A stretch of DNA of 64,000 nucleotides, taken from contig NC_086097.1 in the NCBI RefSeq assembly GCF_963921235.1, forward strand, positions 73,720,001-73,784,000, written 5' to 3'. Positions 3,564 to 28,700 of this stretch are shown one piece after another. This DNA comes from Mobula hypostoma (Eukaryota). The notes beneath the pieces are model-generated. The model saw nothing but the letters and a program-made list of their open reading frames with translations. It had not been told where the DNA came from and did no database searches. The position numbers and the translations under genes are program-made. Each line of letters begins with the position of its first letter. The first letter of the stretch is position 1.

Positions 3564-6465
3564 CTCCAGTTTCCCCTAAGCTTATGGGGCAATTTCTTTA
3601 CAACAATCATCATATTAGCAGGCATGTCCAGCTCACATATGTCCTGCACTTTTTCCTTGGCATTGCAACAGCCTCTAAAAAAGGACTGTCTTCTGACTTG
3701 ATATGCAACCAAGAAAGAACCTTTTCCATGTAGACTGCAGCAACTTTCTGCTCATCACCAAAATGTTCCTGTAATAAAGCTTTGGCCTTTAGGTATCCTT
3801 CCCCCAGGCTGGCTAGCTGGTAACTTTGGACAAGTTCTCTATGGTAACTTTCAGCGAACTGTTCGACTAAATAGAGTCAATCACCATAATCATCAGTCTT
3901 GCCTTCAAAGCTATTCTTGAAAGCTCTCATAAATGAATGATACTGCGATGGGTCACCATTGAAGATTTGAATCTCTCTTTTAAGCAGAGATGCAATGCAT
4001 TGTTGCATCACGAAGCTTGCTATTTCCTTTTGTGTCCTTGTGGCCTCCAGCACTCTATTTACACCACTATCATCTGAAACATGAGTGTCAGCATACTGTA
4101 AATTGATGTCCTCAGAAGCACCGTGTGCTATTAGATACGGCATAGGTTCAGAGTGCCTCCTTGGTGAGGCTGACAATGAACGTGCTAAATGGCCCGTTGG
4201 GGTCCAAACTTGTGGCTCATTAACTTTTGGGGAACATTGACATCGAGTATGTTGGATTTTCTCTGTGCCTTGTAATCATAGGAACTCTCACCATAGAACT
4301 GTCCTGCTGGAGCATGTTTAGCACCTCAGCACTTGAAACGCTTGGCAATTTCACTCTGGCCATCTTGGTTGCAATTTCTTCCTGCCACTTAAGCTACTCC
4401 TAGTTTCTCCAGAGCTGTTTTTCTGTTTCTCCAACACACGTTATCCCTCAATATTTGTTGTCTTGTCCATTGCACAGCTAAATCAGCTTCCATTTTAATA
4501 TGAGCTGAGATAGTATCAGATTCACAGGATGCTGTGCTAGCAATAGAACCTGCTGCACACACGTTAGACTCACTGTCTTCAGGATGCATGTCATCCTAAA
4601 AATCATCAGGTTTATACGTAGTCACAGTATGTCCTGAGGTTTGGTAAGTATTTTCATTTCCTCCAGCAACATTGCATGTTTGTTTCAACCATTGTTCAGC
4701 CTCTGCTGTGACTATATTAATAAGCTTATCAATATTTACATAGCTTTTAGTTTGCTTATCTTGCACTGAGATTGGCATTAAAGACAACAGCAAGTTACGT
4801 TGCTGAGCAACATCTTCAAGAAGATTTTTAAAATCATCTAATTGAGACTGCACTTGCAAGACATCGTGCTCTTCTGGTACAAGGAAACGTTTATTTAGTG
4901 GTATTAAATGGTTCAATTTAATTTCAGAGAATGTATACAGTATTCAGCCTGAAATCCTTACTCTTTGCAAACATCCACAAAGCAGAGAGAAAATTAACCC
5001 AAAGGAATGAATGACAGAAAAATATTAGAACCCCAAAGCCCCCCTCCCATGCAGGAGCAGCAGCAAAGCATCAACCCTTCCCCCTCCTCCCACTTGTTCC
5101 AGCAAAAAGCATCAGTCCCCCCCCCACCACCACCACCCATCATGCAATCAATAGCAAGCCCCCAGAGATCATGATCTGGAGTACATCAAAAACTACTGTT
5201 CATCCCAACACGCCAACATCTCAACAGGCTCTCCCACTAACGAGGGAGAGAGAGAGATATCGCTTCTGCTATAGTGAGAGACGAGGCCAACAGCTCACTG
5301 TTTCAATGTTACAGTCTGCAGTGTTGCTTTTTCAAGTTCCCCAACCTGAGAATCAGAAAACTCTGTCTTTCAATGCTTCAATCTCCCATGATGCTTCAGA
5401 TGGCGACATTGGCAATGGATCATCTTCAGGACTGCACTCCAAAGGCACATGGCTTCCAAGCTGCTTCTGGGGATACCAAAGCACCAGGCTGCTCAGCAAA
5501 CTCTTGAGAGAAAGAATCCACTGCCCATGAAGAACGTAGTCTGAGTGTAGCTGTGGATCACGGGCTCCAACTGGACCCCAGCACCTAGAAAAGGAAAAAT
5601 AAGATATAAGAACCAAAGAATTAAACTATTTCATGGATTAGAAGTTTCCCAGGTCTGCAAAAACCTCTGGCACCATCTTTAGCTCCTCCCACTCCAATCA
5701 TTAATCTTTTTAACAGTTTTATTATAGCCTTTCAAAAGTTGTCAATTCTAGTTGTCAAAGCTTTCCCAGTAAGGTTAATTTCTCTTTTAGTCCTGACTTC
5801 AAAGTCACTGCTCCTAGCTTGACTCATGTTGTCTTCCAAATGCGCAAACCAGACAAAACAACAGCATTCCATTCAGGTGTTGGCAATCATATTATTTCAG
5901 CATTTCAAAAGAATCAAGCATTGAACTCTCAAGCAAACACTGCTATAGAGCTAACGTTCAATGACGACCATTCTGGGCTGTGTTCCAAATCGAAACACAG
6001 AGCATAATCCACAAAACGTTGTTACTTGCCACAGGCTTCTCCACGGTGCTTCTAATTTCAGAGACGCGTCTGAAAGCTGATGTTTGTTTGGTGTAACTGT
6101 CAAAATCTTTTGTTGAGAAAATGTAGCAGCTATGCTAAAAACTAATGCTACTGCTGGCAACCCCCACAGATTGTTATATTTGTCCAATGACTCCAAGGTC
6201 AAAAATCCAAAAACTGTATTCGATGCTTGATTAGCAACTAGCAAACTTACAGTCTTGAAGCAATGAAACTAAGCATAATTAGGCGATCAAAAAAATGATA
6301 TCCATCTGCCCCAGCCCCAAATTGCTCAAAACAAAGCATGAATACGTCACTTATTCCCTTCGCTTTTACCATGTCCCTACTCAGAGGATGAGTTACCATA
6401 ATACACAAAATAAATGTGCAGTACAGAATGCAATGCAGATAGAGAACAGAAGCATGGCTTCTACA
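3564..6465 (-). mobile_element. BEL/Pao LTR retrotransposon relic (5' LTR about 6020-6465 plus decayed gag)
   Basis: KREIQIFNGDPSQYHSFMRAF (Pao gag-like); LTR runs TGTAGAAGC...GGCAAGTAACA on minus; colinear with the copy at 24060-27752. Confidence 0.8.
4911..5695 (-). mobile_element. Non-coding, non-autonomous retroelement inserted in BEL gag
   Basis: Interrupts the alignment with the second BEL copy (ggtattaaat|...|atcattaat); AAGATGGTGCC-type 5' end. Confidence 0.55.
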
Positions 6466-7048
6466 TTATGATAAAGTGTAAATTTGCAATTGGTGCCACC
6501 TCCAGTTTAATTTGGGGATGGGTGGTATTTGAAAGATTATGATGAGCATTTTACCACCGAGCCAGAAAACATTGAACAGTCATTAACTACTGGAACTGGC
6601 ATTTATTCTTATTTTAGTTGTTGTACATTTACCAGTTTTCCCAACATAATGTGTCAATTGGGATGACTCATAATGTATTCTTAGAAGTATTATGTGAATT
6701 TGGTTCCTAAAGTTGTCATAGCTGGGAGTGGTAGTGGGGATAAGCTCCCTACCTAAATGGCGTGCATCTGTAACAGCTTCTGACAACCAAGCCCAACTCT
6801 TGGCCTTCACATGTGGTTTAGCTACTAGGCCCCGCAGAACTGTTTCTACTGACAAGAAAAGGGCAAAGTTGGACAACTGGCACCTCAAAACCAGTTGTTT
6901 CGGGCAGGTGGGGCACGTTAGCCTTGGACAGTAGCCCGCCTAGGAGAAGGAAAACTCTGATTTTAAACCTCCGCTGCCTTGCGGCCATACCCACCCACAG
7001 GAAAGGCTTCGGGAGTAAACCCCGAGGAAGAAATCCGGAGCCAGGGTC

Positions 7049-10000
7049 TGTCTGTCTGTCTGTGTCTTGTTTCATGGCGGTTGGCATCCAGCTTGATGGT
7101 GCATTACCGCCACCCTCTGCTCCGGAATGTGCACTAGACATATAATCTAAATCCCTTCACCCAATCTCGCACGCACGTGCGCACACACACACACACACAA
7201 ACCTACACTTTACCCTCCCATCTTTGACCATCCTAGTACCCTACTCCTGTTTATCTGTCATATCCTATAAAAAACCCCTGTACCCCTTAAGAACGCTAAA
7301 AATACCCGGACCTGTGCTCTCTCACCCATGCCCAGCAACCCTTTTAATGTGAATTCCTGCACCCCCAACTCCCTTAGTTTAATTCTCATCATCCCTCTCT
7401 CTGTATCCCATACTTCCTGTGTTACGTACCCTGTAACTGGGTTGCCAAACCAGCAGAAATGGACCGCTTAGTTGGAGTCTGGATTACTGGAACTGAGAAA
7501 GTTTTATTAAAGAAATAAGTAACACAGTACTCTAATAGTAAGGATATAAATGCAAAAGGTTAGCAATGATAAAACACACGTACACAGAACTAGGATAATA
7601 GGATCAATCAAGCTCTATCGCAGTCTAGGGGTAAAATGATCAGTCTCAAGTGATGCAGAGTTCAGTTCAGTATAGTTCAGTTCGCAGTAATCACTGTTGT
7701 GCCGTTGGGGAGAGAGAGAGAGAGTGCGAATGATGATACTCAAATCGGATTCAAACAGACCTTTGATATTCCTTGCAGTTAGCTTTCGGGCGAGCCCTTT
7801 GTAATGTCTTCTGAGGTCACCGACTGTGACCCCTCCGTTCCGGATACGATCGTTCTTCTGCGGTGAACCTGGCACCCAGGCAAGGGCGGACACACACACC
7901 AGGTTCCCGCCAATCGTACCTTTCCACCCTGTGCGTCTATGGTCGGTCTCACGACCAGACCTCCAAAACTCCCACCAACTTGTTGGGGGGGGGCGCACTT
8001 CCAGGGTCTCGTTATCTCGTGGTGTCGTGGTGTGTCGCTTGCCTTAGCGAACCTGTTCCTGTTATCCCCCTGCTGGGGTATCGCCTGTGCATCAAACTTC
8101 AAACAGTTCAGGTTCAAAGCAAACGGTCTGACAATACTGGGAACTGTGTCTCTTTTCGTTAAACTCTGTCGTCTCTCATATTAGCATTTTGAATGTTTCT
8201 CTCTTTGTCTCTCTTATCAGCATCAATCTTCTGATAACTTGGTCTTTTGTCACACCTGCAACTCAGAACTACATGTTCTACTGACTCCTTTTCCTGACAT
8301 TCCTCACACAATCCTGTCTGGTGTTTCCCTATCATTTTCAATGTTTTGTTTAATGCACAATGCCCCAGTCTTAACCTAGTCCACACAGTCTCCTCTCTTC
8401 TGTTTCCACTACCTGCAACACTTTTTTGTATTTCATATAAATGCCTCCCTTTCCCCTCCCTGTCCCATCTTCCTTGCCATATTTGGTTGACTTCTTCCCA
8501 GATTACACACTTAACCTCTGCTTTACTGATACTAATGTGCATTTCTACATTCTCTTTCTTTAACACCCTCTTTGCCAACTCATCCACCCTCTCATTCCCC
8601 TTCACCCCTACATGTGCTGGAACCCATAGAAATTTGACCTGACCTCTCTGATTTGCAATTCTTGTAACTAACTGAAGGACTTCATAAAGTACATCTTGCC
8701 AGCTGTTTGTGTGAAAAGACCTCAAACTTGCTAGAACTGAGGATGAATCTGAACATATCAATGCTTTGACTTGTCTGGCTTTCTGCACCCATTGCAACGC
8801 AAACAACACTGCCAGCATCTCCACTGTAAACGCCCCTAACTTATTAGATGTTCTTCTGCTGATTCCAATTTCTTTTGCTGGTATAACCACCCCAAACCCT
8901 GTCACTCCTGTTTCAGGTTCCTTCACACCATCCGTATAAATGTGAGTATAATCACTATACTTTTCCATCACGTAACAGTTAAATGCATTTACCAAATCTG
9001 TTTTATATCTTCCTTTCCTTTTTACCTCTAACAAATGCCAGTCTATGTCAGGCCATACAAGCTTCCATGGAGCTACAACCAGATAAACTGCTGAAGGACT
9101 TATCCTTAGATCAAACACTCCACATTCTTTCGCAATATCATTCCCTACCTGACTAAAGGTATCCCTCTGAAACCTCCCATTTTCCCAGCACTCCTGCAAC
9201 ATTCCTTTAGCAGGATGAGAATCATTGTGCCCCTGCAAGTCAGCCCAGTAGTTTGCCACCAGTTGCATCCTTCTTAGTTCCAAAGGCATTATTCCCATTT
9301 CTACCGGTAGGGCTGATCCTGGTGACGTTTTAAAAGCCCCACTGCACACTCTCAAATCACATCCAGTTTCCTTATAAGAGACCAAGCTGCTGATCCATAT
9401 GCTATGTTTCCATAGTCCAACACAGATCTCACTAAGGCCACATAAATTCTCTTCAACGCTGAACAATGTGCTCCCCATTCCCTACCAGTCAAACATCTCA
9501 TCACATTTATTACTTTCTTACATTTCTCCTCAACTTTCCTGATATGGTCTGCCCATGTTAATCGTTAATCAAATATAACTCCCAGAAATTTAAATGATCC
9601 AACCCTTTCTAATTCAATCCCATACATCCTTAACTTCTTCCCTACCTCAATTCTTTTCCTGGTAAAAAATACAGTTTGAGTTTTTTCTACTGAAAATCTA
9701 CATCCCCAATCATAACCCCACTCCACCACTTTATCAATTGCTTCTTGTAGTTTCCTGATTATATGCTCCATGTTCCTGCCTCTTTTCCACAAGGCCCCAT
9801 CATCCGCAAACAGTGACCTACCTATATCCACTGGTACCTTTGTGAAGACATCATTAATCATAATGATGAAAAGTAATGGGCTAAGCACACTACCCTGAGG
9901 TGGGCCATTTCCCCTAAGTACTGTTTTGATAATTCTGACCCAATCCGAACTTGAATTTTTCTACCAAACAAAAAATCTTTAATCCAAATAAAAACTCTCC

Positions 10001-12218
10001 CACCAACCCCCATCTTGTGCAGTTTAATTAATAATCCTTCCTTCCACATCATATCATAGGTTTTTTCAATGTCAAAAAATAATGCAACTACCGATTCTTT
10101 ATTTGCCTGGGCCTTCCTTCTTTCAGTCTCTAACCTTATCACTGAGCCCATGGAATTCCTTCCCTTTCTAAAACCACTCTGATAAGTTGCCAGCATTCCC
10201 CTCTTCTCAAGCTCATACGATAACCTTTCTGTTATCATCCTTTCCATTATCTTACATATATTTGATGTTAATGCAATTGGTCTGTAGCTAGTGGGTTTTG
10301 ACAGATCCTTGCCAGGTTTCCTTATTGGAATTACTACTGCTTCTTTCCATGCACTTGGTAATCTTCCCTCCTCCCACACTCTGTTATAAAAATGCAGCAA
10401 CTTCGACAGTGCTCCTTCTCCTAGATTTTTTAGCATCACAGAGCATATCAGATCTTTCCCTTGGGAGGTTGGTCTCGATCTCTTTATTGCTCTCACCATT
10501 TCTGCTAACGTAAATGGATCATCAATTATATCATCTGTTCCTTCCCTCCTGTTTAACACACCTGGGTGTTGGCTCATTTTTCTTTCCCTTCTCCTTCTCC
10601 CTTCTTCAGACAAATTTTCTGAACTGTGTATCAGTACAAATGACTTGGCCATGATCTCAGCCTTATCCCTACTGGAGACTGCAGTTTCCTCCTCAGATAT
10701 CATTACTGGATATTCCCATTCCCTTCTATCTCTTCCCATCCTCTTAATCATTCCCCATACCTCTCCCACAGGTGTTGTTCTTCCTATTTTGTTGCAAAAA
10801 CTCCTCCAACTTGCCCTTTTAGCTTGATGTATAGTTCTTCTCACCACTGCCTGTGCTTTCTTATATTGAACCAAATGCTGCATATTATGGGTTCTTTTAA
10901 CTAGCCTGAATGCTCTATTTCTGTTTTTTACAGCCTGACAACATTCCTCTGTCCTCCATGGTACCAGTTTCCTATGCATCCTATTTTTACTCCTAGGTAT
11001 AGATCCTTCTGCTGCCATAATAATTGCTGAAGTCACCTGACTGTTTAATTCATCTACATTTCCAGAAATATCAATCTTTGTCAATGTCTCTTCACTCTTA
11101 TTTCTTGAATTTTATTCTCCCGTCTCATAACCTCACACCCACTATATGCTACATTATGAGCTCCTCCGCAATTGCAGCATTTTGGTTGAACTCCTGTTCC
11201 GCACTTTCCATATTCATGATCACCCCCACAACTAGCACATCTCCTCTGCCTTTTACAGTTTTTAGCCACGTGTCCAAACCTTTGACAATTATAGCAACTC
11301 AGTGGCTTTGGCACATACACCCTTACTGGGTAACTCATGAAACCCAGGAACAGCTTCCTTGGCACTCTTTCTTCTTCAAATTCAATCAATACTGATTCAC
11401 TTTCCTTTTTCACTCCCTCCTTTGTTGTTTTCAGTCTTTGAACATTCATTACTTTCCCTCCTTTGATATTCCTCTTTAACTCCTCCATATTTATACTCAT
11501 TGGTATCCCCGTGATCACTCCTTTACGACCACTATTTTGTGCTCCCACCCTCCCAGTGTATTCCACCTTGCATTTTCCTATCTCTTTCAGCTTGAGTGCT
11601 TTCTCAAGTTGTTCCTCATTCGCACATCTTACCAATAAGTTGTCATCATTAAGGACTTTTGCAAATACTATTTCCTCTATCTTATTTGCCAGAGTTGTTG
11701 TTAGCACAAATGGGTTAATTTTCTTCATATGTCCTTGGGGCTTCTCATTAAACCTAATTATGACAACACCTCCTCTCTGAACTTGTACATCTTCCTCACT
11801 TTCAGAGCTCTCTCCACTGTCATTTCTTATTCTTTTATTCCCTTTGTCTCGGTTTTCATTCATCCGTCTCCTCATTCCCTTTATTTCTCCCTTCACAATA
11901 ATCCATCTCTCCCCAGCTGCCTACCTCTGATCCCAAGTCCCTATCCCGCTCCTTCTCCACTTTCTTTCCCTCAACCCCGCCTCTCATCTTGTCCGCCATT
12001 ACCGGACCCACACGACCCCCTCCCAGCAATTTCCGTTCCTTTCCCACTCTCTTTCCCTCAACAGGTTCCAAACCACATTCACGCATCAAGCAAAACACAG
12101 CCAGCCTCCCCTCCCTCCAACTAAACCTCCAAAGTTCCCCACCCGCTGATTCCTGGCCGTGCCCCTGTTCCAGTGCTTGGGAACTCTACAAGTCGGTCTC
12201 CATGGCAGCAACGTTGCG
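7049..12218 (-). mobile_element. Nimb/I-clade LINE: ORF1 (CCHC knuckles), RT, RNase H, C-terminal CCHC; APE endonuclease missing
   Basis: ORF1 CYNCQRFGHVAKNC; RT YRPIALTS, QSGFRKG, LFADD; RNase H YTDG..CSDS..WVPAHVGVKGNERVD; (CAGA)n tail; TSD GGAGCC(A/G)GGGTC at 7037-7048 and 12219-12230. Confidence 0.9.
7420..8254 (-). mobile_element. Gypsy (Gmr1-related) solo LTR, 835 bp
   Basis: TG...CA ends; 4-bp TSD CCTG (7416-7419, 8255-8258); shares blocks (aactgaactgaact, ttacccctagact, ccatttctgctggtt) with the LTR at 59229-61084. Confidence 0.85.
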
Positions 12219-13767
12219 GGAGCCGGGGTCCCTAAGACAGTTTGATGTTGTTTACAACTTCACTCTGGCACCCTCTGTGACGACACTGGTGCCAAGCTGT
12301 ATCGGCGTTTGCCCTTCCCTTGGACTACATTAGTGACGTGGATAGGGCGAACCCGCAGCATGGGCAAGAGCCGGTTCTTCAAATCTTCCCGCCCAGGCTT
12401 GCGCCATAGAGTGGACACAGTCCACCAGAGACGCAAACCCATGATCCCTAGGATCGACGGCTGCCTACCTACCGTTATGTGAATTTGCAAATGCTGTCAA
12501 TGCTTCAATGTATTGGGTATGCCAATATATACCACATACTTCAAAATCTTTACGAATGTCAGACATTCACGTAGATCCAGAACAAATGTTCTTTCTTGAA
12601 CGAAGTTCATTATTGCAATCCAGCTACAGTAGAATCGCTATTCTCAAATCGCTATTCTCAAGGAGGCAATGATCCTGCCCACCACATTTTGAACCAAATC
12701 ATTTGTGCAAACGCAATCACCATGACCTAGTAAATTATATCAAGTCTCACATATCAAGCTGTACTATTCTATGTTCTATGTTATGCCAATCTTGCCGTTT
12801 CAGGAGTTATCTCTATGCCTGCACCTGACAAAACTACGTATTAAAAATGCATTGTTTGTGCGAGTATACTTCATATTGTCTTAAATGTAATAATGATCCC
12901 AATATTTTTAATAACGTCCACGAAAAGACTATTACAGATCAACGAGGGTCTTGTCAGACAATATGAGATAGTTTAAGTTCATGCAGTAATATATACTTTA
13001 TGTGCGAAAATGTAGGTTATGTCTCTCTCCTGTGAATTGGACATAACCTTGTTATTTGCATAATACTTTACCTGCTATGAGACATACACAAACTTTATAT
13101 TTCCACCCTAACTCTTGATAAAAAACGGGACATTTTAAAAGGGGCTCGTTTTGCAGTAACTTTATTCCCAATGTATGGTGTTGCTAGAACCGCAACAGAA
13201 GTTTTAACATGCTGCTGCAACTTTAGAAAAGAGAAGCAATTGTACTGCTGGTGCCTTACGGGGAGTGAAAACAGAAATGGTTGCAATGCGCAAATGTTTC
13301 TTCAAGGCCATATGGGATTAAATCTTTTCTTAGCAGTTAAGGGGCTAACATGTGCAGTTATAGGCAATAAGTGTTATAGTTACATACATGACGAAGCTGC
13401 TAAACTGCATCAATATGATTTCTTTTAATGGATAAAATCAAAGCTCGGAAACTGGGATTACTCAGTACTATGAGTTATATTTACTCTGGTGTGCCTTATC
13501 ATAACTTAAGTCATAGTTACTAAAGGCCTTCATTAATAAGGCTCCGAAACGTATACGAGTGTACGTACTCATAGTGTACTGACTCGAAGGACAACCGTAA
13601 GGATGACCATCTGACTATGACATCACTGTATGAATGACCTTTGATGTTTGCCTGATGGTGTAAGTTTTCGGTTGTTTTACAAGCGACATAGATACAAGTT
13701 TTTCCGCCCCTGAATTTTCAGATGTTTCTAAATTATTCTAAGTATATGATTTGGGACGGGGAGGGGA

Positions 13768-14175
13768 TGTTGTTGGATTAGAGTTATTTTTCTTGTAGTT
13801 TAACATTCTTTATGTTTGCTTATATTTTATATAATCACATTTGTGTAATTGCTTAGTGAATTTTCAGAAATTGTAGGATAGCTATTTCTGTGTTTTCTAT
13901 AAGTTTAGCTACAACCTGTGTCACACGACTGAACCTAGGTTACGTCTTATCAATGGTGTTGTGTTCTTGTCTTTCTAGTCTGAGCTAGCTTTTAGAATAA
14001 AACAACCTCCACTTCTTTGTTCTCTCCCTCCCTTTGTTCATTTTTTTCTTCCTTCTTTACCGATTAAGTTGGTCACTGTTATGAATACCTAATAAAACGT
14101 CAGTAACCAGCAAGTTTTATGCCTCATTCTTGACTTCTGAAGAAGCACTGGATCATACCATCTCCAGATCCAACA
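13768..14175 (+). mobile_element. ERV 3' LTR preceded by a polypurine tract
   Basis: PPT gggacggggagggga at 13753-13767; TGTTGGAT (13771) and ATCCAACA (14168-14175) form an 8-bp inverted terminus; AATAAA at 13996 and 14091. Confidence 0.75.
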
Positions 14176-15699
14176 CGATGTACCTGTTCAACTGTCTTTT
14201 AAAAGTTGCCGTGTCTGCCTCAACCACCACCCCTGGCAGCTGATTTGATATAGATACTACAGTTAGTGTAAAAAAATGCCCCTCAAGTCCCAATTAGATC
14301 TCTCCCCTCTCATCTTAAAACTACACCGGCTTGTTCTTGATTCTCCAACTCTATCTATGCTCCTCATGATTTTATACACCTCTATATTACTACCCCTCAG
14401 TCCCTAAAGTCATGGCGGCATCCGTGTATATCATTTCTGCCCCCTTTCCAGTTTACTATCAACTTTCCTATAATAGGGTGACCAATACTGAACACAATAT
14501 TCCAAATGTGGCCTCACCAGTATCAAACACCTTCTCTACAGTAATGCAAACTATCCCCAAGACTTACCCATATACTTTTTCTACTTCCAAAGGCTTCATG
14601 TCTTTCTCCATGGTGAAAACAGAAGTGGACACACATCCCACAGGTGCAGTCCCCAGGGACACTGAGTCTTCCTGATCACCCACATCCTGCAGGAAGAGCA
14701 TACCACTGCCTTAACTGCCATTCCGAATACACCTAGAATAAAAAGGAAATTCAAAGAACTTTATCTGTGCTTCTGCTGCTGAAGTATGAAATCCAAAGCC
14801 TCCTTATTTACCAAACACTGGCCCACTCTTACAATGGCTGCTCTGCTAGAACCGGTTTTTCTTGATTGATGTCACACAATTAACTTATGAGAAGTTCTTT
14901 TCCAAAAACATCTATTTGCCTATCAGAAAGGCTCTTTTTCTTTAAGGTTCCCGCTGCTGCTCTGCTTCCTGCCTCTTAAAAACTTGAAATGAGCACAGTA
15001 ATGGCTACTTTTAAAGCTTCCCTTAAGTCTACAGCATTCACTGTGCACAATAAGGACTTTAAATTGAGGGGACACTCTGCACTGCAGAACCCTTGATTAA
15101 CACATTGGCACTATTTTTTGTCAATAATTTCAGGTTGATGTTGCTTCTGCCATTTACAGTTCAATGAGGCTAATCTTGTGCTTCTCTATGTCCTGTGTAC
15201 CTCACTTCCACTCGGCATGGAAACAGGCTCTTCAGTTCAACTCGAGTTCGTCACATCTGCCTGTGTTTTATCCATACCCTCTCAACCCATCTGATCCATG
15301 TACTTGATCAAAGATGGTTTTCATATGTTACTAATGTGCCCGCCTCAATCACTATTTCTGGCAGCTTATTCTAAGTATCAACCCCCTTTGTACAAAGAAG
15401 CTGCTCCTGATGTCCCTTTTAAGCATCTCACCTCTGATCTTAAACCTATGCCCTCTTATTTTTATACCTTCATTCTGGGAAAAAAGTCTATGTGCTTTCA
15501 CCCTGTCTACGACCCCTCAATTTCGTATGCTCAAGGGAATAAAGTACTAGTACAACCTCTCCTTGTAACTCAGGCCCCATACAGTTAAATCCTTATTGGA
15601 TTGTTTCTAGCTTAATCACATCTTCCTTATATCTCTACACAATACTCCAAATGCGGGCTCACCATTGGCTTGTCTCAGTTGTTATTTAACCTCTCCCAG

Positions 15700-16442: not shown

Positions 16443-16959
16443 ACAGGAAACAGGAAATTACAAGCTAAACCAAATGACAATAAATAGGATGTTTCTGATA
16501 TTCAATTAAACATATTAAAATTTAAGTGATTACCTAAAATGCAGTAAAATTAACTTATTGAATTAAACAAAAAATAAGTGAGGGAAAAGTGCAAGACACG
16601 TGGGATCAATTTTGGTTGTGTTTTAATTTAAACTTAAATTCTTTCGAAGTTTTATTTGTTTTCCAGTCATGGGATGACTGTGTAAATATGCTGTGCTGCA
16701 TTGTAAAATAAGAATAAATAATAATAAACATTTGAATTACAAAAAAATAGATTAACTGCAACTTCCCCATGCCATTCAAAATGAATGGATTAGCTGAACC
16801 CATCTCCTGGTCTAAACTGGCCCCAAGGTACAAGGGACAGATTTCTCCGTATAAATGATGCAAAGCTGCGGGAAGTTGGTGCCTCATCCCTGTTGGAATG
16901 CAGTCACAATGACAGTGTATTGAGTCCCTTCATTACTAATGCAACTTGGCATTTGTTTT

Positions 16960-19535: not shown

Positions 19536-19739
19536 TCAGCTTTCTTTTTCTTCTTCATCTTCACTGCCCTCACTATCACTGTCCCTGCCAGGATGTTCAG
19601 GCATTTGTCTATGTTCCTCCACTGGAGTCTCTTCAACCTTATTTTCAGGAACAGATTCTTCAATCTCTTCAGCGTTCTCAATGACTGGAACTGGATCAGG
19701 TTCTTTTGTCGACTTAGGGACTGGTGGCAGAAGTACCTG
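19536..19739 (-). CDS. AQR: AQR terminal coding exon (QVLLPPVPK...[15 protein letters not shown])
   Basis: ctgtag/CAG acceptor; open in the expected phase 0; Pro-rich then acidic tail; tandem TGA TGA; poly(A) signal about 165 nt downstream. Confidence 0.85.
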   Translation of the reverse strand, partial: QVLLPPVPKSTKEPDPVPVIENAEEIEESVPENKVEETPVEEHRQMPEHPGRDSDSEGSEDEEEKES

Positions 19740-22700
19740 CTACAGATGGAAAAGGAATTATATTGAATGAATGTTTGCATTATTACAACAATTTTTGGTG
19801 GTTATACTACAATCTTTCTTCACCACAGTTGCTGAAGATTTCAAATTGTGTTTTTATATATTTCAGATTTCCAGCACTTGCATTATTTTGCTTTTACAAT
19901 AATATTAAACTCAACATACAAAAAGATAAGCACTGTCTAACACAGTTTCCCAACTAAATTTTTATATTTACTGCAAAAATGAGAAAAGCTTGAGAATCTG
20001 CCACATGTCAGGTCAAATGCAAGACCAAAAGAGTCAGCTGAATGTTTTAAATATATGCAAATTTTACTGTAGGTTCTTGCCAAAGCATCACTTTCATTAA
20101 ATAGAGAAATAATTAGTATAAAGTAGAAAATTTACATTTTGCTAAGTGCAAACACAATTTCACTTAATTTGATTTCAATTTCATAGGATGAATATTTCAG
20201 TAAACAAATATTTGACAAATGTTAGTTTAACCTTCTACTCTCACTAGTAATATATCCCATCATCTACTTCCAATTTCAATATATCAAAGCTGTTTTGAAT
20301 CAGGTGACTTAATGACTTTTTAATGCTTACCTTCAACATGCTAGAGTAAATCAAGGTGCTCCATAGACTGTTAACAAACACAATTTAACAATGGTCTCTA
20401 TCCAACAAGATGTATTGAGGGAACAATTCTTACATAAAGCACACATACAAATCAACAATAATTTTATAGGGGTATTAATTTTTTCTAGTTTTAAAAAGCC
20501 TGTGAAGTGCTTCCCTCTATATTAATAATCATTTCTACATTTCAAGAATATGGCAGACAACGGCCATATCAGATGGAATTCAATAAAAAATGATCAAACA
20601 TAATACACACCAAAATTCCACAAGACTTCAAAATCAACTTTGAAGATTTGCATGTCTGTTTGAGAAAGCCGAACGCACAAAAGAAAAGAAATCGGCAGAT
20701 TTGGTGCCAAGACAGATTCTAAAGCAGTTGCTTACCTGTCTGTATTGGTGCATACTCTGAATGATGTGCATGTACATATCATAAACAAAGTTTGCCATCT
20801 CTGGCATGTTCTTGATAACTCGCATCAAGTGGGTTGGAACACGGCCATTCTAAACAAAAAAATATTAGCAACCATTGTAACAGTATTACCAAAACATGTC
20901 AAAACTAGTATTAAATCACTACTATACGCCAAAACACTAAAGAGAAAAGATACCCTTCTGTCTGTGGGGAAGTACTCCGATGGGACAATGTGGAGCTGGA
21001 GTGGCCGAGCAGTCAGTTGATTGAAGGCTGGTGTAAGCTCAAAGCAGTTCTGGAAGAGCGATACTCTTGCAAAGATGTACAGTCCAAGCCTGGCTCTTGA
21101 CATTGCAACAACTAACCGACGAACATCTCTAAATAAAAAAGATGAAAACTGTTAAAATACTGATTATTGTAAGAAGGCTTTTCTGCTGCAGCTAAAAAAG
21201 ATATTGAGTTAAACAAAGAATATTTCCATGTAATAATTATGTCACTTCAATAAGGTTCAACTCCCATTTTTTCCCATCAATAGGTGAACATTTTAAGCTG
21301 ACAATTGATGACAATACAGCATACAGTTCATTCATTATTTGAACTGAATATCATTGATAAGTATTTATTGAGCCAGCTGTAGCACTACAGGCAATGCTGA
21401 ATGCACCAGTGTTTCTATGGTAATGGGGGAGACTAAATATGTTTAAAATAGATTTAGATGTTTAAAAATGATTTATATTTGGGTATCAATCATGATTTAC
21501 TATTTAATTAACTGAACAACATGACAAAACCCTGAGATTCTTTTTCCTGTGGACAACTTAGCAGATCTAAGGAACACTAACTGTAAACAGGATCAATGAA
21601 TGACAAACTGTCCAAATGTAAATATAAATAAGTAGCAATAAATAACGAGTATGAAATAACAAGATAAAGTGTCCTTAAAGTGAGACCATCGGTTGTGGGA
21701 ACACTAGAAATAGAAATAGAAGTAGGATGAGTGTAGTTAGATTATGAGAACACTCCGTCCTCGTTTATTGTCATTTAGAAATGCATGCATTAAAAAATGA
21801 TACAATGTTTCTCCAGAATGATATCACAAGAAAACACAGGACAAACCAAGACTAAAACTGACAAAACCACATAATTATAACATGTAACACACATCAAAGT
21901 TGCTGGTGAATGCAGCAGGCCAAGCAGCATCTGTAGGAAGAGGTGCAGTCGACGTTTCAGGCCGAGACCCTTCGTCAGAACGAAGGGTCTCGGCCTGAAA
22001 CGTCGACTGCACCTCTTCCTACAGATGCTGCTTGGCCTGCTGCGTTCACCAGCAACTTTGATGTGTGTTGCTTGAATTTCCAGCATCTGCAGAATTCCTG
22101 TTGTTTTAATTATAACATGTAGTTACAACAGTGCAAAGCAATACCATAATTTGATAAAGAGCAGACCACGGGCACGGTAAAAAAAAGTCTCAAGGTCCCG
22201 ATAGACTCATCATCTCACGCAGGCGGCAGAAGGGAGGAACTCTCCCTGCCATGAACATCCAAGCGCCACCAACTTGCCAATGCAGCACCATTGGAAGCAC
22301 CCGACTGCAGCAGACTCTGAGTCCGTCTGAAAACTTCAAGCCTCCGACACAGCCTCTCTGAGCACCATCCTCTGCCAAGCGCTTCGACCCCGCCCCGGCC
22401 GCTGAGCAACAAGCAAAACCGAGGACTTGGGGCCTTCTCCAGAGATTCTGGACCACACAGTAGCAGCAGCAGCAAAGCAGGCATTTCAAAAGTTTCACCA
22501 GATGTTCCTCCATGCTCTCACATCCGTCTCCATCAAATCGGGATTGTGCACGCCACCCCACTTGACAAATAAGACATCACCACTGGAGTAGCCGCTGTGA
22601 GCTGCGTCGTGTCGCCATCTTCTCCTCCCGCCCTTTAGTTATCCCCTTTTGTTTAAGAGCCTGATGGTTGTGGGGTAGTAACTGCTCTTGAACCTGGTGG

Positions 22701-25700
22701 TGCGAGTCCTGAGGCACTTGTATCTTCTACCTGATGGCAGCAGCGGGAAAAGAGCATGGCCTGGGTGGTGAGGATCTTTGATGATGGTTGCTGCTTTTCT
22801 ACTGCAGCATTTCATGTAGATGTGCTCAATGGTTGGGAGGGCTTTACCCGTGATGTACTGGACCAAATATACTACCTTTTGTAGGATTTTCTGCTCAAGG
22901 GCATTGGTGTTCCCATACCAGGCTATAATACAGCCAGTCAGCACACTTTACACCACGCATTTATAGAAGTTTACCAAAGTTTTTGATGACATGCCAAATC
23001 TCTGCAGACTCCTGAAGAAGTAGAGCTGCTGTGCTTTCATTGCAATTATATTTATATGATGGTTCCAAGACAGGTCCTCTGAGATAATGACACCCAGGAA
23101 TTTAAAGTTACTGAGCTTCTCCCTCTCTGATCCTCCAATGAGTACAGGCTTATAGACCTCTGGTTTCCCTCTCCTGAAGTCTACCATCAGTTCCTTGGTC
23201 TTATCGACAATGAGTGAGAGGTTGTTGTTATTACACCACTCAGCCAAATTTTCTATCTCCCTCCTGTATGCGATTTATCACCACCTTTGATACGGCCCAC
23301 AACAGTAGTGTCATTAACAAACTTGTATACGGTGTTGGAGCTGTACTTAGCCACACAGTCATAGCTGTAACGTGAGTAGAGCAAAGGCTAAGCACAGATC
23401 CCTGTGGTGCTGCTGTGCTCATGGAAATTGCAGAGGAGATGTTTTTGCCATTCTGAATTGACTGGGGTCTGAAAGTGAGGAAATCCAGGATCCAATTGCA
23501 CAAGAGGGTATTGAGGCCCAGGTCGTGGAGCTTACTGATTCGTTTTGAGGCGATGATGTTATTAAATGCTGAGCTGTAATCGATAAAGAGTATCCTGATG
23601 TATGCATCTTTGCTGTCCATATATTCTAGGGTTGTGTGAAGAGCAAATGAGATGGCATCCACTGTAGACCTGTTGCTTTGATAGGCGAACTGGAGCGGAT
23701 CCAAGTTGCCACTCAGACAGGAGCTGATATGCTTCAACACCAGCCTCTCAAAACACTTCATCACTGTGGATGTAAGTGCCATTGCTCGATAGTCATTGAG
23801 GCAGCTCACCACGTGTCAGGATTTCCTTGAAAGCTCAAATTCTGATGTTAAGATTGTATCCTCAAACAAGTTTCTCTCATTAAGAACACTGTAGATACCA
23901 CTAGCAAAACTATAAAGTTTGAGGATATGTTTACACAACCTAACCAAGACAAGATATATGAAAATCACTGTGATTTATATTTCAAAGGTTTTTCCTGTTC
24001 AGAGAAATTATGGATTGTTTTTTTCTGAAAAACGGAAAAAGCAAAAACACCAAGTATGACTGCAGTGGACAATTCTAACTAAACCAACTGCTGCTACTGG
24101 CAACCACCACGGATTTGTTATACTTGTATGGTGCGCTCTCCAGCTCCAATACCAATTGTTCCAAAAGTTGAAGATATGTATTCGATCCTTTCTGAGTAAT
24201 TAGCAAACATACATTCTTGAAGTGATGAAACTTAAGTGTACTTAAGCACATGTATGCGTAACTAAAGACATGACATTCGACAGTCCCCAGCGCAAAATGC
24301 CCCAAACAAAGCACGAATACATAACTTATTCCCATTGCTTTTTCCATGCACCCTCTCACGTGACTAGGTACGATAATAAACGTGCAACAGAGAATACAAT
24401 GCAGATAGAGAACAGATGCATGGCTTCTACATTCCAGCTCTCCAAGTATTATACTATAATAATTATAACTACATGCTACAAAGACATGGGAGACATGAAA
24501 TCTCAACATTCACACAACGGTCCTCTTTCTGGTATGCAGTCTATCCTTGGTTGTCATCTTCGCCTAACAAACCAGCTTGTTCCTCCTGACTGCGTTCAGG
24601 AAAATCTGTCTTGAATTGCTGCTGCCAAAGCTCATTCAAGTTCAAAACTGAAATCCTGTTAACTGTCCGCTCCGGCTGAGTGTAGTCTCTTCCACCACCA
24701 TAGACTCCTTTCAATGGTCTATTAAAAGTCCAACCCAGCCTTGTTCTGATTGCATAGGGTCCATCATTAACACCATGAATCACTTGTAACAGCTCCAATG
24801 CTTTAGACCCATTCACCCCTACCAGTGGCTCAATATCTGAATCAATTTCTGGCAAATAAATATGCTTCAGATGAGACAATTCCTGAAGATCTTTCTGACA
24901 AGGAATGCTTCCTCTGTAGACAGGCATACATTCCTGCGTATAGATATTTCACAATAGTTTTCACTATCTAAGTCAGCCACTTCCAATCCTAAAACAACGT
25001 AGCTACTCACAACCTTCTCTTGATGCATGGTGCGTAAAAGAAAGTGTGTTCATTCTCCTGTCAGATTGAGCTTGTTCATGAGGTTCACTGTGCAGAGCAC
25101 TGCTGTACTTCCTTGATCTAAGAAAGGTTAAGATCGTTACTCTCTTAGACTTCACCTGAACTGCAGTTATAGAATGTTTACAATCATGATCATCAGCCCC
25201 CATAAGGCCATTAGATACCAGGGCGGTACTCGCTGTTGTGCTTGATTCTTTAAAGGCTTACTTCGAATCTGCACTCTTTACTTAGTCCCAGGCTTTACTA
25301 GCTTCACTTTTCACTTTTTAGTAGTGGCAAAATAAATTACTTGAGAATGAATTTGTGATTTAGTCTTGTTCACACATTTGCTTACTGCTGGTGATACAGC
25401 ATCGTGCACATTCCCAAACGCTGGGGGTGTTGTAATCTTTACTTGCCTTTCAATAAAAGCAAAAACTTCAGTGAAAGTAAACTTACGGGTTGTGCCTTTC
25501 TTGCAGTTTACAGACCATCGATCTTTGTTTTTCCCTCAGTTTATGGGACAATTTCTTTATGGCAATCGTATTAGCAGGCATGTCCAGCTCACACATGTAC
25601 TGCAATTCTTCCATGACATTACAACAGTCTCTAGGCAAAAGACTGCAATCCTGAAGAACTTTCACATCTTCAGAATGGATATGTGGGCAATAAAGAGCCT

Positions 25701-28700
25701 TTTTCATGTAGTCTGCAGCAATTTTGTGGTTATCACCAAAATGTCCCTGTAGTAGAGCTTGGGCCTTTATATATCCTTGCTCCGGGCTGGCTCACTGGCA
25801 ACTTTTGACAGCAGGGTAACCTCCAGTGAACTGTTTGAGAAAATAGAGATGGTCACCATAATCATCAGTCTTGCCTTTGATGCTATTCTTGAAAACCCTC
25901 ATAAACAAATGATACTGTGATGGATTGCCATTGAATATATGAATCTCTCTTTTAAGGCACACATGCAATGCATTGTTGTTGCATCACTAAGCTTGCTAGT
26001 TCCTTTTCCATCCTAATGACCTCCAGTGCACTATTTAGATTTTTATAATCTGAAACACAAGAGCCAAACTGTAAAATAATGTCCTCAGAAGCTCCTGTGC
26101 TATTGGATATGGCGTAGGTTCAGAGTGCCTCCTTGGTGCGGGCTGAGAATGAACAAATGTATCCACAGTGACATTGAGTATGTTGGATTTTCTCTGTGTC
26201 ATGTCAACACAGGAACTCTCACCAGAGAACTGTCCTGCTGGTGCATGTTTTGCACCCACAGCACTTGAAGCTCTTAACACTTTAACTCTGGCCATCTTGG
26301 CTGCAATTTCTTCCTGCAACTTAAGCTGCTCCAAAGCACCTTGTGCTACAGGATATGACATAGATCCTTTCTCCAAAGCTGCTCCATCTTTCTCCAAAGC
26401 TGTTCTTCCATCTGCTCCTGGTTTCTCTGAAGCTCTTCCACCATCATCTCCTCATTTCTCCTAGGCTGTTCTTCCTGTTCTTTCAATGCATGTCTATCCC
26501 TTAGTTGTTGTTGCTTTGCTCATAACTTGGCTAAATCAGCCTCCATTTTAATATTTACCAAAGAGCTATCAGATGCACAGGACGCTCTGCTAGCAACAGA
26601 ATGTGCTGCATGCATGTTAGATGCACTGTCTTCAGGGTGTACGTCATTCTTAAAGCCATCAGTTTTATACATAGTCACAGCATGCTCTGAAGTTTGAGAA
26701 ATATTTTCATTTTCTCCAGCAATTTGACCTTCAACATCGCATGCTTGTTTCAACCATTGTTCAGTCTCGGCTGTGACTGTACTAATAAGCTTATCAATAT
26801 TTAAATAGCTTTCAATTTGCTTATCTTGCACTGAGATAGGCATTGCAGACAAGAAGTTATGTTGCTGAGTGACATCTTCATGAAGATTTTTTAATTCATG
26901 CAATTGCGGCTGCACTTCCAAGACATTGTGCTGTCCTGGTATGAGCAAACTTCTAATTAATGGTATTAAATCATTAATGTTAATAATTTTATTATAGCCT
27001 TTTCGAACATTGTCGATTCTAGTCACCAAAGAAAGTTTGATTTCCCTTTAGGTACTGACTTGAAGGTCACTGCTTCCAGCTTGACTCATGTTGTTTTCTA
27101 AGTACAAGAACCAGGCAAAACAACAGCATTCAATTCAGACACTGACAATCAACATATTTCAGCTTTTCAAGAGAACCAACACAGACTTCACAGGCGAACA
27201 CCACTATACAGCTTAGTCTTTGATGACCATTCCGAACTATATTCCAAACTCAAACACACAGAATGAATCAACAAATGGTCCTTACTTGCCACAAGCTGCT
27301 CCAGCCTGTGGTGCTTCTAATTTCACAGACACATTCGAATGCTGATGTTCATTTGCTATAACTATCGAAATCTTTTGTTGACAGAATATAGCAGCCAATT
27401 CTAACCAAACCAATTGCAGCTGCTGGCACCCCCATGCGTTTGTTATACTTGCATGATGCACTCTCCAGCTCCAATAATGATTGTTCCAAAACTCAAAGAT
27501 ATGTACTTGATTTCTTATCAGCAATTAATAAAATACAACCATGAGGCAATGAAGCTCAAGCATACTTAAACGCAAATAAGTGTAACTAAGCTGTCAATTA
27601 AATACATGACACCTGTTGGTCCCCAGCTACAAACTGCCCCAAGCAAAGCATGAATATGTAACTTATTCCCTCTGCTTTTACCATGCCCCCACTCATGTGA
27701 CTAATTACCATAACACAGAATACAATGCCGACAGAGAACAGATGCTCTTACAATGACAAAGGAAGAAAAGGATTAATGGTACAACTGAAATTTGAGATAA
27801 GGGCATTGACAACGTTCTGATAGTATGTTATAGAGTGGAAATATAAGAGTGCGGTCCAATGGATGACTTTTGTGACTGAAACATCACATGCTGACACTGC
27901 AGGAAATAACAACTTAATGCTGAAAAGTTGATGAACAAACTTACACACTGAAGTTTACCAGGAGATATGGAGTCTGAATGGAGCAACAGGAGCTTGGAGA
28001 GCACTTGCCAGTGAAGTCTGAGAATTTATTGCTGGGCTTTCTGAATGTAGTTCATGGAGAGTGGAGATAGGAAGAATAGCTAGTAGAATACTGAAGAGCA
28101 CCTGCTAATTTCACTAGCAGGAAAAAGTGAGGCAAAAGATGGCTGGGAAGTGAATAATTGATCAGATGTAGACAAGAAGTTGGAACAGCATTGAGTCTAC
28201 ACAGGAATCCATACCTCGCATGTAATCTGAGATGATAGCTGAGAGATGGACTGCACTGAACTCAAGACTTAAGTGAGTATTTCAGGCTCTGTGATAAGGG
28301 AGCTTTGGTTCTGCCACTATCTAGCTGAGGAGTTTTGGTTCATCCAGCTTCTAATATCACAAGGACAATACGACCATAAAATTACCCAATTCCTGTTTAT
28401 TATATTAACTTGAAATTCCCTCTCTAAACTTCTATTTAATGCCTAAATCAACAAGATGGCTCACAAATATACCTTATCTTACGAAAGAATGTTTTACAAT
28501 CCTACATCTATTTTAAACATAGTCTACCCTCATTTCAAAAGATCACTGGCAGAAATACTGACAACTCTAGCACTTTCAGCATTGCCTGTAGAACTACAGC
28601 TGCTATGTGAAGAATAATTGTTAGAAGTAAACAAGTTTTCAATTACTTTAAGCAGCATAAAAACAGGTCAAATGACAAAAAAGCTAAATATGAAGAAGGG

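What the first reader, a model, noticed from the sequence alone, without database searches (positions are those of the whole stretch)
6590..14175. Reconstructable class I retroviral env plus PPT and LTR, hidden by 5.8 kb of insertions
Seen: removing 6703-12474 and one TSD copy joins GMTHNVFLEVLCEF to ANAVNASMYWVCQYIP in frame. Downstream are NWT.PCY, DKKR|DILKGARFAVTLFPMYGVAR (13117 on), a heptad AATLEKRSNCTAGALRGVKTEMVAMR in a shifted frame, LQGHMGLNLFLA (13300) and CAVIGNKCY (13351-13377), then a PPT and a TG..CA LTR. Established: signal peptide, CXXC, furin site, fusion peptide, ISD and CX6CC is the gamma-type Env layout. Inference: an old epsilon-like ERV in a probable chondrichthyan, a group whose ERVs are sparsely described. 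The ORF track shows only an 85-aa scrap of it.
Basis: partly seen in the sequence, partly recalled or inferred. Interest (0 to 1): 0.7.

Follow-up and report, generated by a model that had tools for sequence, protein, structure and literature searches.

The report
Dead retroviral envelope split by transposons
This is the broken tail end (envelope gene plus end repeat) of a retrovirus that likely entered a cartilaginous fish's genome long ago and was later split by three jumping genes stacked inside one another; it is real, but an ordinary dead example of a kind already known in these fishes.

Summary
A 13-bp target-site duplication (6690-6702, 12475-12487) brackets a 5.8-kb interruption. The pieces on either side score separately, in exact register, against unbroken fish and shark gamma-type Env proteins (left piece p about 1e-4). 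The interruption holds three nested elements: a short high-copy repeat, an RNase H-bearing LINE inside it, and a solo LTR inside that. A polypurine tract and a 408-bp TG..CA LTR follow; 83-99 contigs per related genome share the LTR's 3' end. Corrections: CXXC reads YWVC, CX6CC reads CX6CY, the furin site and signal peptide are not intact, and there are further breaks. No pol is present, so 'epsilon-like' cannot be tested. A second species shares the locus and the outer insert (1.8% divergent); a third likely shares the integration site (6-8%). Gamma-type Envs are already reported in bulk from cartilaginous fishes, many intact. Verdict: a dead new member of a known kind, useful mainly as a dating marker.

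The parts
6468..6689 (+). 5' env remnant: hydrophobic signal-peptide-like stretch (6597-6629, stop at 6615) and the N-x-F-L piece (6672-6689) that precedes the SU cysteine motif in homologs; cut off upstream at about 6467 by a BEL/Pao-like element
   Evidence: (p=1.4e-4 at fixed register); junction at 6467 from repeats D17; bridged by a contig of organism B (record 17)
6690..6702 (+). Target-site duplication, left copy (13 bp)
   Evidence: left junction bridged by an X1 contig with 0 differences (record 1)
6703..7048 (+). 5' part of the outer inserted element: short, very high-copy, non-coding; RTE-like by recalled terminal features, not tested
   Evidence: summed contig depth about 94,000 at 6754-7030 against 11-15 for single-copy contigs in X1; joints 7020>12230 and 7009>12241 show copies without the inner LINE
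7049..12218 (-). Middle insert: LINE with CCHC-knuckle ORF1, RT and RNase H, tetranucleotide tail at 7049-7062, flanked by an 11-of-12 direct repeat (7037-7048, 12219-12230); no endonuclease domain detected in this copy; I-superfamily/Nimb-like by recall
   Evidence: Pfam zf-CCHC 5e-5, RVT_1 5e-15 and 4e-14, RNase_H 4.5e-15; junctions; translations
7420..8254 (.). Innermost insert: 835-bp TG..CA solo LTR with a 4-bp duplication (7416-7419, 8255-8258)
   Evidence: joint 7415>8255 skipping 839 bases in all 4 runs laid (14, 4, 1 and 5 contigs)
12231..12474 (+). 3' part and short-repeat tail of the outer element
   Evidence: depth and joints; organism B contig 12420-14133 bridges its tail into env
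12475..12487 (+). Target-site duplication, right copy
12488..13116 (+). Decayed SU: cysteine-motif position reading YWVC (12511-12522), a middle with no confident frame, and the C-terminal C.G..Y (12985-13026) and NWT.PCY (13029-13094, other frame, stop at 13044) pieces
   Evidence: HMM 12481-12549 iE 0.009; top-scoring of the sampled six-frame null positions; collinear order
12633..12661 (+). 14-bp tandem duplication inside SU; absent from organism B's contig
12746..12783 (.). 38-bp high-copy microsatellite-like scrap inside SU; skipped by organism E's contig
   Evidence: depth 11,011 against 44.7 in X5; joint 12745>12784 in X12; sequence
13117..13539 (+). Decayed TM: basic KKR (13120-13128), fusion-peptide-like stretch (13150-13182), heptad in another frame (13208-13294), ISD-like stretch (13300-13350), cysteine loop reading CX6CY (13351-13377), membrane anchor (13465-13521); stops at 13426, 13471, 13507
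   Evidence: (frame-2 heptad iE 5.3e-5)
13753..13767 (+). Polypurine tract (14 of 15 purines)
13768..14175 (+). 3' LTR, 408 bp, TG..CA, AATAAA at 13996 and 14091; start at 13768 or 13771 (8-bp terminal inverted match from 13771)
   Evidence: ends shared by many contigs (99, 88 and 83 at 14147 in three runs), listed pieces ending at 14174-14176, joints skipping a variable middle

Best explanation
The locus is the 3' end (env, polypurine tract, 3' LTR) of a gamma-type-Env retroviral provirus, broken by stops, frame changes and a three-layer transposon insertion, and it is likely a non-functional fossil that integrated in an ancestor of several related fish species. Shown: Env homology on both sides of the insert, the three target-site duplications and their nesting, the multi-copy LTR ends, and shared junctions in organism B. 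Inferred order of events: (1) a retrovirus integrated just downstream of an AQR-like gene, on the opposite strand; (2) a short repeat inserted into the start of SU by target-primed reverse transcription, duplicating 13 bp; (3) a LINE inserted into that repeat; (4) an LTR retrotransposon inserted into the LINE's 3' untranslated end and recombined down to a solo LTR; (5) gag-pol and the 5' LTR were lost next to a BEL/Pao-like element; (6) neutral decay added small duplications, indels and stops, and likely turned both motif cysteines into tyrosine. The ancestral protein would have worked like other gamma-type Envs: cleavage into SU and TM, a labile SU-TM disulfide, and heptad-driven fusion (established for the family, PMC9967133 passages). 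This copy cannot encode that protein.
For: Homology: 9 of 12 phmmer hits are Env-like and 8 of those carry TLV_coat above cut-off. All 6 PDB hits are Env TM or syncytin chains, though weak (E 0.14-1.2). 26 of 30 ESM Atlas hits fall in the TLV_coat set. Pieces not used as the query also match: SU start iE 0.009, frame-2 heptad iE 5.3e-5, left-of-insert piece p=1.4e-4. Six pieces scored separately fall in gene order in 11 of 35 homologs, including the 3 best. SU spacing fits: 510 nt including about 50 later additions, against 155 aa in P0008. Nesting: three duplications and joints showing the LINE without the LTR and the outer repeat without the LINE. The breaks are real: an X1 contig matches 12420-14139 with 0 differences (possibly the source sample), and B's contig differs at only 30 letters and 27 gap letters of 1709. 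Decay of the cysteines: 32 of 35 homologs keep the third TM cysteine and 24 of 35 show the SU motif.
Against: Pfam gave no TLV_coat hit on any window piece (0 of 9 env-region queries). Two word-based protein searches found nothing, and the SU start gave no Atlas hit. The strong HMM score over TM (iE 3e-22) is partly circular, because the homologs were found with that stretch. 3 of 12 phmmer hits were unrelated repeat proteins. No uninterrupted copy was seen in the shown joints. Orthology in organisms E and F rests on one contig bridging the LTR end into a flank that is itself repetitive, and on a 19-letter overlap that is below the tool's threshold. When the insertions happened relative to the loss of gag-pol is not resolved.
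Confidence: 0.9

Rival explanations
1. The env is real, but its viral lineage natively lacked the first SU cysteine and the third TM cysteine, so SU and TM were held together without the usual disulfide; the two tyrosines would be a family trait, not decay.
For: Both halves of the same disulfide system are changed, and to the same residue. No difference row appears at either codon in the shown part, although 13-20 contigs per run cover nearby positions. CXnC subtypes exist among anamniote gamma-type Envs (10.1101/2021.11.23.469661, section 7). 3 of 35 homologs also lack the third TM cysteine.
Against: 86 difference rows were hidden, so the missing rows prove nothing. 32 of 35 homologs keep CX6CC, and the closest ones keep both motifs. 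The copy is heavily decayed throughout, and each change is a single-base transition away from the family residue class.
Confidence: 0.07
2. The locus retains a host function, for example as a transcribed non-coding element or as an LTR-derived polyadenylation or promoter site next to the AQR-like gene.
For: A 315-nt contig covering 12647-12946 with organism B's own five differences occurs in a run guessed to be RNA (X10, depth 6.6). The locus persists in several species.
Against: The tool marks RNA as a guess and contigs give no strand; DNA carry-over or read-through from the neighbouring gene explains it. Divergence is similar in env, LTR and flank (5.7-8.2% to organism E), so no part looks protected. 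The reading frame is destroyed.
Confidence: 0.05
3. The 5' piece is unrelated sequence, and the 13-bp repeat and the motif match are chance.
For: 321 of 63,663 distinct 13-mers recur in this repeat-rich window. The match left of the insert is only about six residues long.
Against: The repeat sits exactly at both edges of a high-copy element. The piece matches only at the register fixed by the repeat (p=1.4e-4, 7e-5 and 5e-5 for 6, 8 and 10 residues) and scores negative at every other register tried.
Confidence: 0.02

Closest known systems
Anamniote gamma-type Envs annotated 'ERV group PABLB member 1 Env-like': Huso huso KAK6479265.1 (P0008), Heptranchias perlo (P0031), Alligator sinensis XP_025067643.1 (P0004), Esox lucius (P0002/P0014), Stegostoma tigrinum XP_048383747.2 (P0012)
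   Same: Same order and spacing of the N-x-F-L piece, SU cysteine-motif region, C.G..Y, W.G.CY, F.P.YG fusion stretch, heptad, ISD, cysteine loop and anchor; P0008 and P0031 give the highest summed piece scores; 24-50% identity per piece.
   Different: Those are open frames, and most keep both cysteine motifs. This copy is interrupted, frameshifted and lacks both motif cysteines. No tree was built, so the clade (such as Env-C.1 of 10.1101/2021.11.23.469661) is not assigned.
Syncytin-like Env candidates of chondrichthyans (bioRxiv 10.64898/2026.05.06.723177)
   Same: Gamma-type layout in a probable cartilaginous fish; gag absent; shared location between related species.
   Different: Those were selected as ORFs of 400 aa or more with signal peptide, furin site and CX6CC, and some are expressed. 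This locus fails all those filters and has no pol nearby.
CmiERV lineages II and III of the elephant shark (PMC4422223), epsilon-like by Pol
   Same: LTR-bounded, env-bearing ERVs of cartilaginous fishes, tens of millions of years old by that paper's estimate.
   Different: Their classification rests on Pol, which is missing here; no sequence comparison with CmiERVs was made.

Membership tests
Gamma-type (class I) retroviral Env | ISD directly followed by a cysteine loop in TM | tested here: met
   13300-13377 aligns to the ISD and loop of syncytin-1 and of 35 homologs, local scores 64-98
Gamma-type (class I) retroviral Env | Third cysteine of CX6CC | tested here: not met
   Window reads CX6CY; present in 32 of 35 homologs, so likely lost by decay. 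This lowers 'intact member', not 'descends from'.
Gamma-type (class I) retroviral Env | CXXC in SU | tested here: not met
   Window reads YWVC at the homologous position; present in 24 of 35 homologs
Gamma-type (class I) retroviral Env | R-X-K/R-R furin site between SU and TM | tested here: inconclusive
   KKR at the homologous position, but it lies at a frame break and the P4 arginine is not readable
Gamma-type (class I) retroviral Env | Fusion peptide, heptad repeat and membrane anchor in TM | tested here: met
   Hydropathy 1.6 (11 aa) and 2.8 (19 aa, with stops); heptad iE 5.3e-5
Gamma-type (class I) retroviral Env | N-terminal signal peptide | tested here: inconclusive
   Hydrophobic stretch 6597-6629 at the expected distance, with a stop and no start codon directly before it; no signal-peptide predictor available
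Gamma-type (class I) retroviral Env | Pfam TLV_coat (PF00429) above cut-off | tested here: not met
   0 of 9 env-region window queries hit it; 8 of 9 Env-like phmmer hits do
Endogenous retrovirus 3' end | env, then PPT, then TG..CA LTR with poly(A) signal | tested here: met
Endogenous retrovirus 3' end | LTR dispersed in many copies | tested here: met
   99, 88 and 83 contigs at 14147 in three runs; pieces end at 14174-14176
Endogenous retrovirus 3' end | Paired 5' LTR, PBS and proviral target-site duplication | tested here: not met
   No second copy of the LTR in the window; the 5' part is missing
Epsilon-like ERV | RT groups with epsilonretroviruses | not testable with these tools
   No retroviral pol found upstream; no assembly held. 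Fish ERV classes rest on RT (PMC9967133 passage).
Co-opted env (syncytin-like) | Intact ORF kept across species | tested here: not met
   Multiple stops, frame changes and insertions; organism B shares the outer insert

The most novel reading that the evidence does not exclude
The copy belongs to an old ERV lineage of rays, with at least a dozen env-bearing copies per genome, whose Env had lost both cysteines that make and break the SU-TM disulfide. That would be a natural non-covalent gamma-type fusogen, and one relative may still be strongly transcribed (a high-depth contig in RNA-guessed run X10 matches 13251-13289).
Probability: 0.07. Interest if true: 0.55.

Novelty: new member of a known kind. 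Interest (0 to 1): 0.25.

Why it matters
As it stands, modestly. It is a clean example of an env that ORF-based and Pfam-based screens miss, and a locus with built-in chronology: provirus, then three nested insertions, then lineage-specific small changes, partly shared across species. That makes it a usable minimum-age marker for ERV invasion of these fishes and for the activity periods of three transposon families. It opens no long-standing question, because gamma-type Envs, including intact and expressed ones, are already catalogued in sharks, skates and rays. Only the low-probability reading (a family-wide loss of the SU-TM disulfide) would interest Env specialists.

Tried and rejected
No assembly was held, so fuller proviruses, LTR pairs and an RT tree could not be sought. 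Pfam on the env-region pieces gave no TLV_coat; one weak DUF6246 hit (E 0.14) was disregarded. Word-based protein searches with the TM piece found nothing among 32 longer and 1 near-length candidates. The ESM Atlas gave no usable hit for the SU start. Rfam gave 0 matches in 6400-14400. No retroviral pol or gag was found between 1 and 6467; the ORFs there are LINE RT pieces and a BEL/Pao-like gag, with DUF1759 only weak on its second copy (E 0.028). No RNA holder was listed as such; this is not evidence either way. A copy without the outer insert was looked for and not seen in the shown rows, and the tables were cut. Organism F's contig reaches only 19 letters into the outer insert, below the bridging threshold. 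P0004's SU-motif match was dropped because it lay in the TM anchor, and P0054 was left out of the homolog set because it lacked TLV_coat. No structure prediction and no tree were run. Literature: 5 searches listed no paper on this locus; I do not claim absence from print. bioRxiv supplements (candidate lists of both preprints) could not be seen and may hold relatives of this family.
Full report
Observation. The 13-mer at 6690-6702 recurs at 12475-12487 and nowhere else in the window. On its own this is weak, since 321 of 63,663 distinct 13-mers recur in this repeat-rich window. The two copies, however, sit at the edges of very high-copy DNA. Four labels need correcting. The SU motif reads YWVC rather than CXXC. 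The TM loop reads CX6CY rather than CX6CC. The basic site lies at a frame break and is not a readable R-X-K/R-R. The hydrophobic 5' stretch (6597-6629) holds a stop and has no start codon directly before it.

Is it Env? Pfam gave no TLV_coat hit on 9 env-region queries, and two word-based searches found nothing. All 6 PDB matches of 13081-13425 were Env TM or syncytin chains, at weak E-values of 0.14-1.2. 26 of 30 ESM Atlas hits fell in the TLV_coat set, best score 0.94, with recognition just under the tool's mark. phmmer over 1.84 billion proteins gave 12 hits: 9 Env-like, 8 of them with TLV_coat above cut-off, and 3 unrelated repeat proteins. Named hits come from pike, sturgeon, alligator, zebra shark and pipefish; a profile search added 27 more, including two further sharks among the top rows. 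A profile of these homologs hits TM at iE 3e-22, but that is partly circular. Pieces that were not the query also match: the heptad in another frame (iE 5.3e-5) and the SU start (iE 0.009). Six pieces, each scored alone, fall in gene order in 11 of 35 homologs, including the three best, of which Huso huso P0008 and Heptranchias perlo P0031 lead.

Does the 5' piece belong? I tested it without joining anything. Against 16 non-redundant homologs anchored on the SU cysteine motif (22 had enough upstream sequence), the six residues before the left repeat copy score 9.3 at the single register fixed by the duplication, p=1.4e-4 among 42,654 six-frame positions. All 12 other registers, both other frames and the insert's own tail score negative; 8 and 10 residues give p=7e-5 and 5e-5. 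The gene was therefore interrupted at this point. An uninterrupted copy was not seen among the joints shown, but 443 joints were hidden.

The interruption is three elements deep. The outer one is a short non-coding repeat of about 590 bp (6703-7048 and 12231-12474), RTE-like by recalled terminal features only. Inside it lies a minus-strand LINE (7049-12218) with CCHC, RT and RNase H domains, flanked by an 11-of-12 direct repeat. Inside the LINE's 3' end lies an 835-bp TG..CA solo LTR with a 4-bp duplication. Contigs that skip the solo LTR occur in all 4 runs laid, and contigs that skip the LINE in 3 of 4, which confirms the order. Env carries further damage: a 14-bp tandem duplication (12633-12661), a 38-bp high-copy scrap (12746-12783), frame changes near 13027, 13115, 13205 and 13293, and stops at 6615, 13044, 13426, 13471 and 13507.

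The 3' end. A 15-nt purine tract (13753-13767) abuts a 408-bp TG..CA segment with AATAAA at 14091 and an 8-bp terminal inverted match if the start is taken at 13771. Its ends are shared widely: 99, 88 and 83 contigs cover 14147 in three runs, listed pieces end at 14174-14176, and joints skip a variable 250-310-base middle. The conserved env pieces are also shared, by 13-20 contigs per run at 12537 and 13327, so the genomes hold a modest family of env-bearing copies. Depth is not copy number, so these are rough counts. No second LTR copy lies in the window. Upstream of 6467 is a minus-strand BEL/Pao-like remnant (DUF1759 weak on its second copy) and then LINE pieces; no retroviral pol was found.

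Context and age. Helicase exons on the minus strand run from about 50150 down to a likely last exon near 19540-19740 (AAA_12). The name AQR comes from earlier notes and recalled motifs. The provirus lies about 5 kb beyond that exon, on the opposite strand. Organism B's contig runs from the outer insert's tail through env into the LTR with 30 differences in 1709 letters and lacks the 14-bp duplication; another bridges the BEL junction. Organism E has contigs over env (42 differences in 510), over the PPT and LTR (29 in 512) and across the LTR end into the flank (27 in 340), and it skips the 38-bp scrap. Organism F has a contig from TM into the LTR (55 in 766). If E is orthologous, about 7% divergence means roughly 16 to 160 million years using the two rates quoted in PMC4422223 (2.2e-9 for mammals, 2.2e-10 assumed for the elephant shark). 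That is a wide bracket and an inference. A contig from a run guessed to be RNA covers 12647-12946 at depth 6.6 with B's five differences; DNA carry-over or read-through cannot be excluded.

Mechanism. The best reading is a dead proviral 3' end, decaying neutrally and serving as a landing site for later transposons. The loss of both motif cysteines is most simply decay, as 32 of 35 homologs keep the third TM cysteine and 24 of 35 show the SU motif. A family-wide loss is not excluded, because the relevant rows may be among the 86 hidden.

Comparison with what is known. In PMC9967133 (passages) the ISD plus CX6CC defines gamma-type Env, many fish ERVs carry it, and fish ERV classes rest on RT. 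In 10.1101/2021.11.23.469661 (passages and section 7) gamma-type Env ERVs occur in 6 cartilaginous fish, over 500 copies in 3, and 79.6% keep CX6CC while the others have CXnCC or CXnC. In 10.64898/2026.05.06.723177 (whole main text) 295 intact candidates are reported from 16 chondrichthyan species, with epsilon-like Pol in the catshark and shared positions between two dogfish. PMC4422223 (part 1 of 2) describes epsilon-like ERVs of the elephant shark. The supplements of both preprints could not be seen and may list relatives. This locus descends from a gamma-type Env, fails the intact-member tests, and cannot be called epsilon-like without pol.

Verdict. Real, carefully spotted and ordinary: a new dead member of a known kind, interest 0.25. 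The scan's sequence look-up found no look-alike note; a similar env-PPT-LTR remnant and two epsilon-like Pol remnants were noted elsewhere in this genome (unchecked).

Noticed in passing
run X10 against window 13251-13289: In a run guessed to be RNA from organism B, contig depth at 13225-13284 is 188.7 against 0-7 over most of env, with loose ends at 13251 and 13289. This may be a strongly represented transcript of a related env copy.
   Followed up: no
window about 11080-11110, minus strand: The inserted LINE runs from the CCHC-knuckle ORF1 almost directly into the pre-RT linker, and no endonuclease domain was detected; likely an internal deletion in this copy.
   Followed up: partly
run X5, joint 12547>13298: One contig of organism B joins the SU start to the ISD region with 20 other letters between, suggesting an internally deleted env copy; organism E shows a similar joint (12541>13310).
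   Followed up: no
window 13768-14175 against runs X5, X12, X13: The LTR family shares its first 60 and last 100 bases across very many copies but has a variable middle, pointing to several subfamilies or related ERVs with common ends.
   Followed up: no
window 3570-6467 and 24177-27727, minus strand: Two diverged copies (70-78% identity) of a BEL/Pao-like element with LTR-like ends; the first is cut at 3570 next to a LINE tail.
   Followed up: partly
window 19540-50150, minus strand: Exons of an AQR-like helicase gene; an AT-rich stretch at about 16460-16830 beside a LINE insertion could be part of a longer 3' untranslated region.
   Followed up: partly
window 53504-54034, 47649-47886, 21881-22074, 52635-52731: Long inverted repeats with arms of 231, 113, 95 and 41 nt; the 21881 one was already noted by the scan as a Penelope-like insertion.
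   Followed up: no
window 63180-63815, plus strand: Integrase core domain (Pfam rve, E 8e-13) of another LTR element at the window's right end.
   Followed up: no
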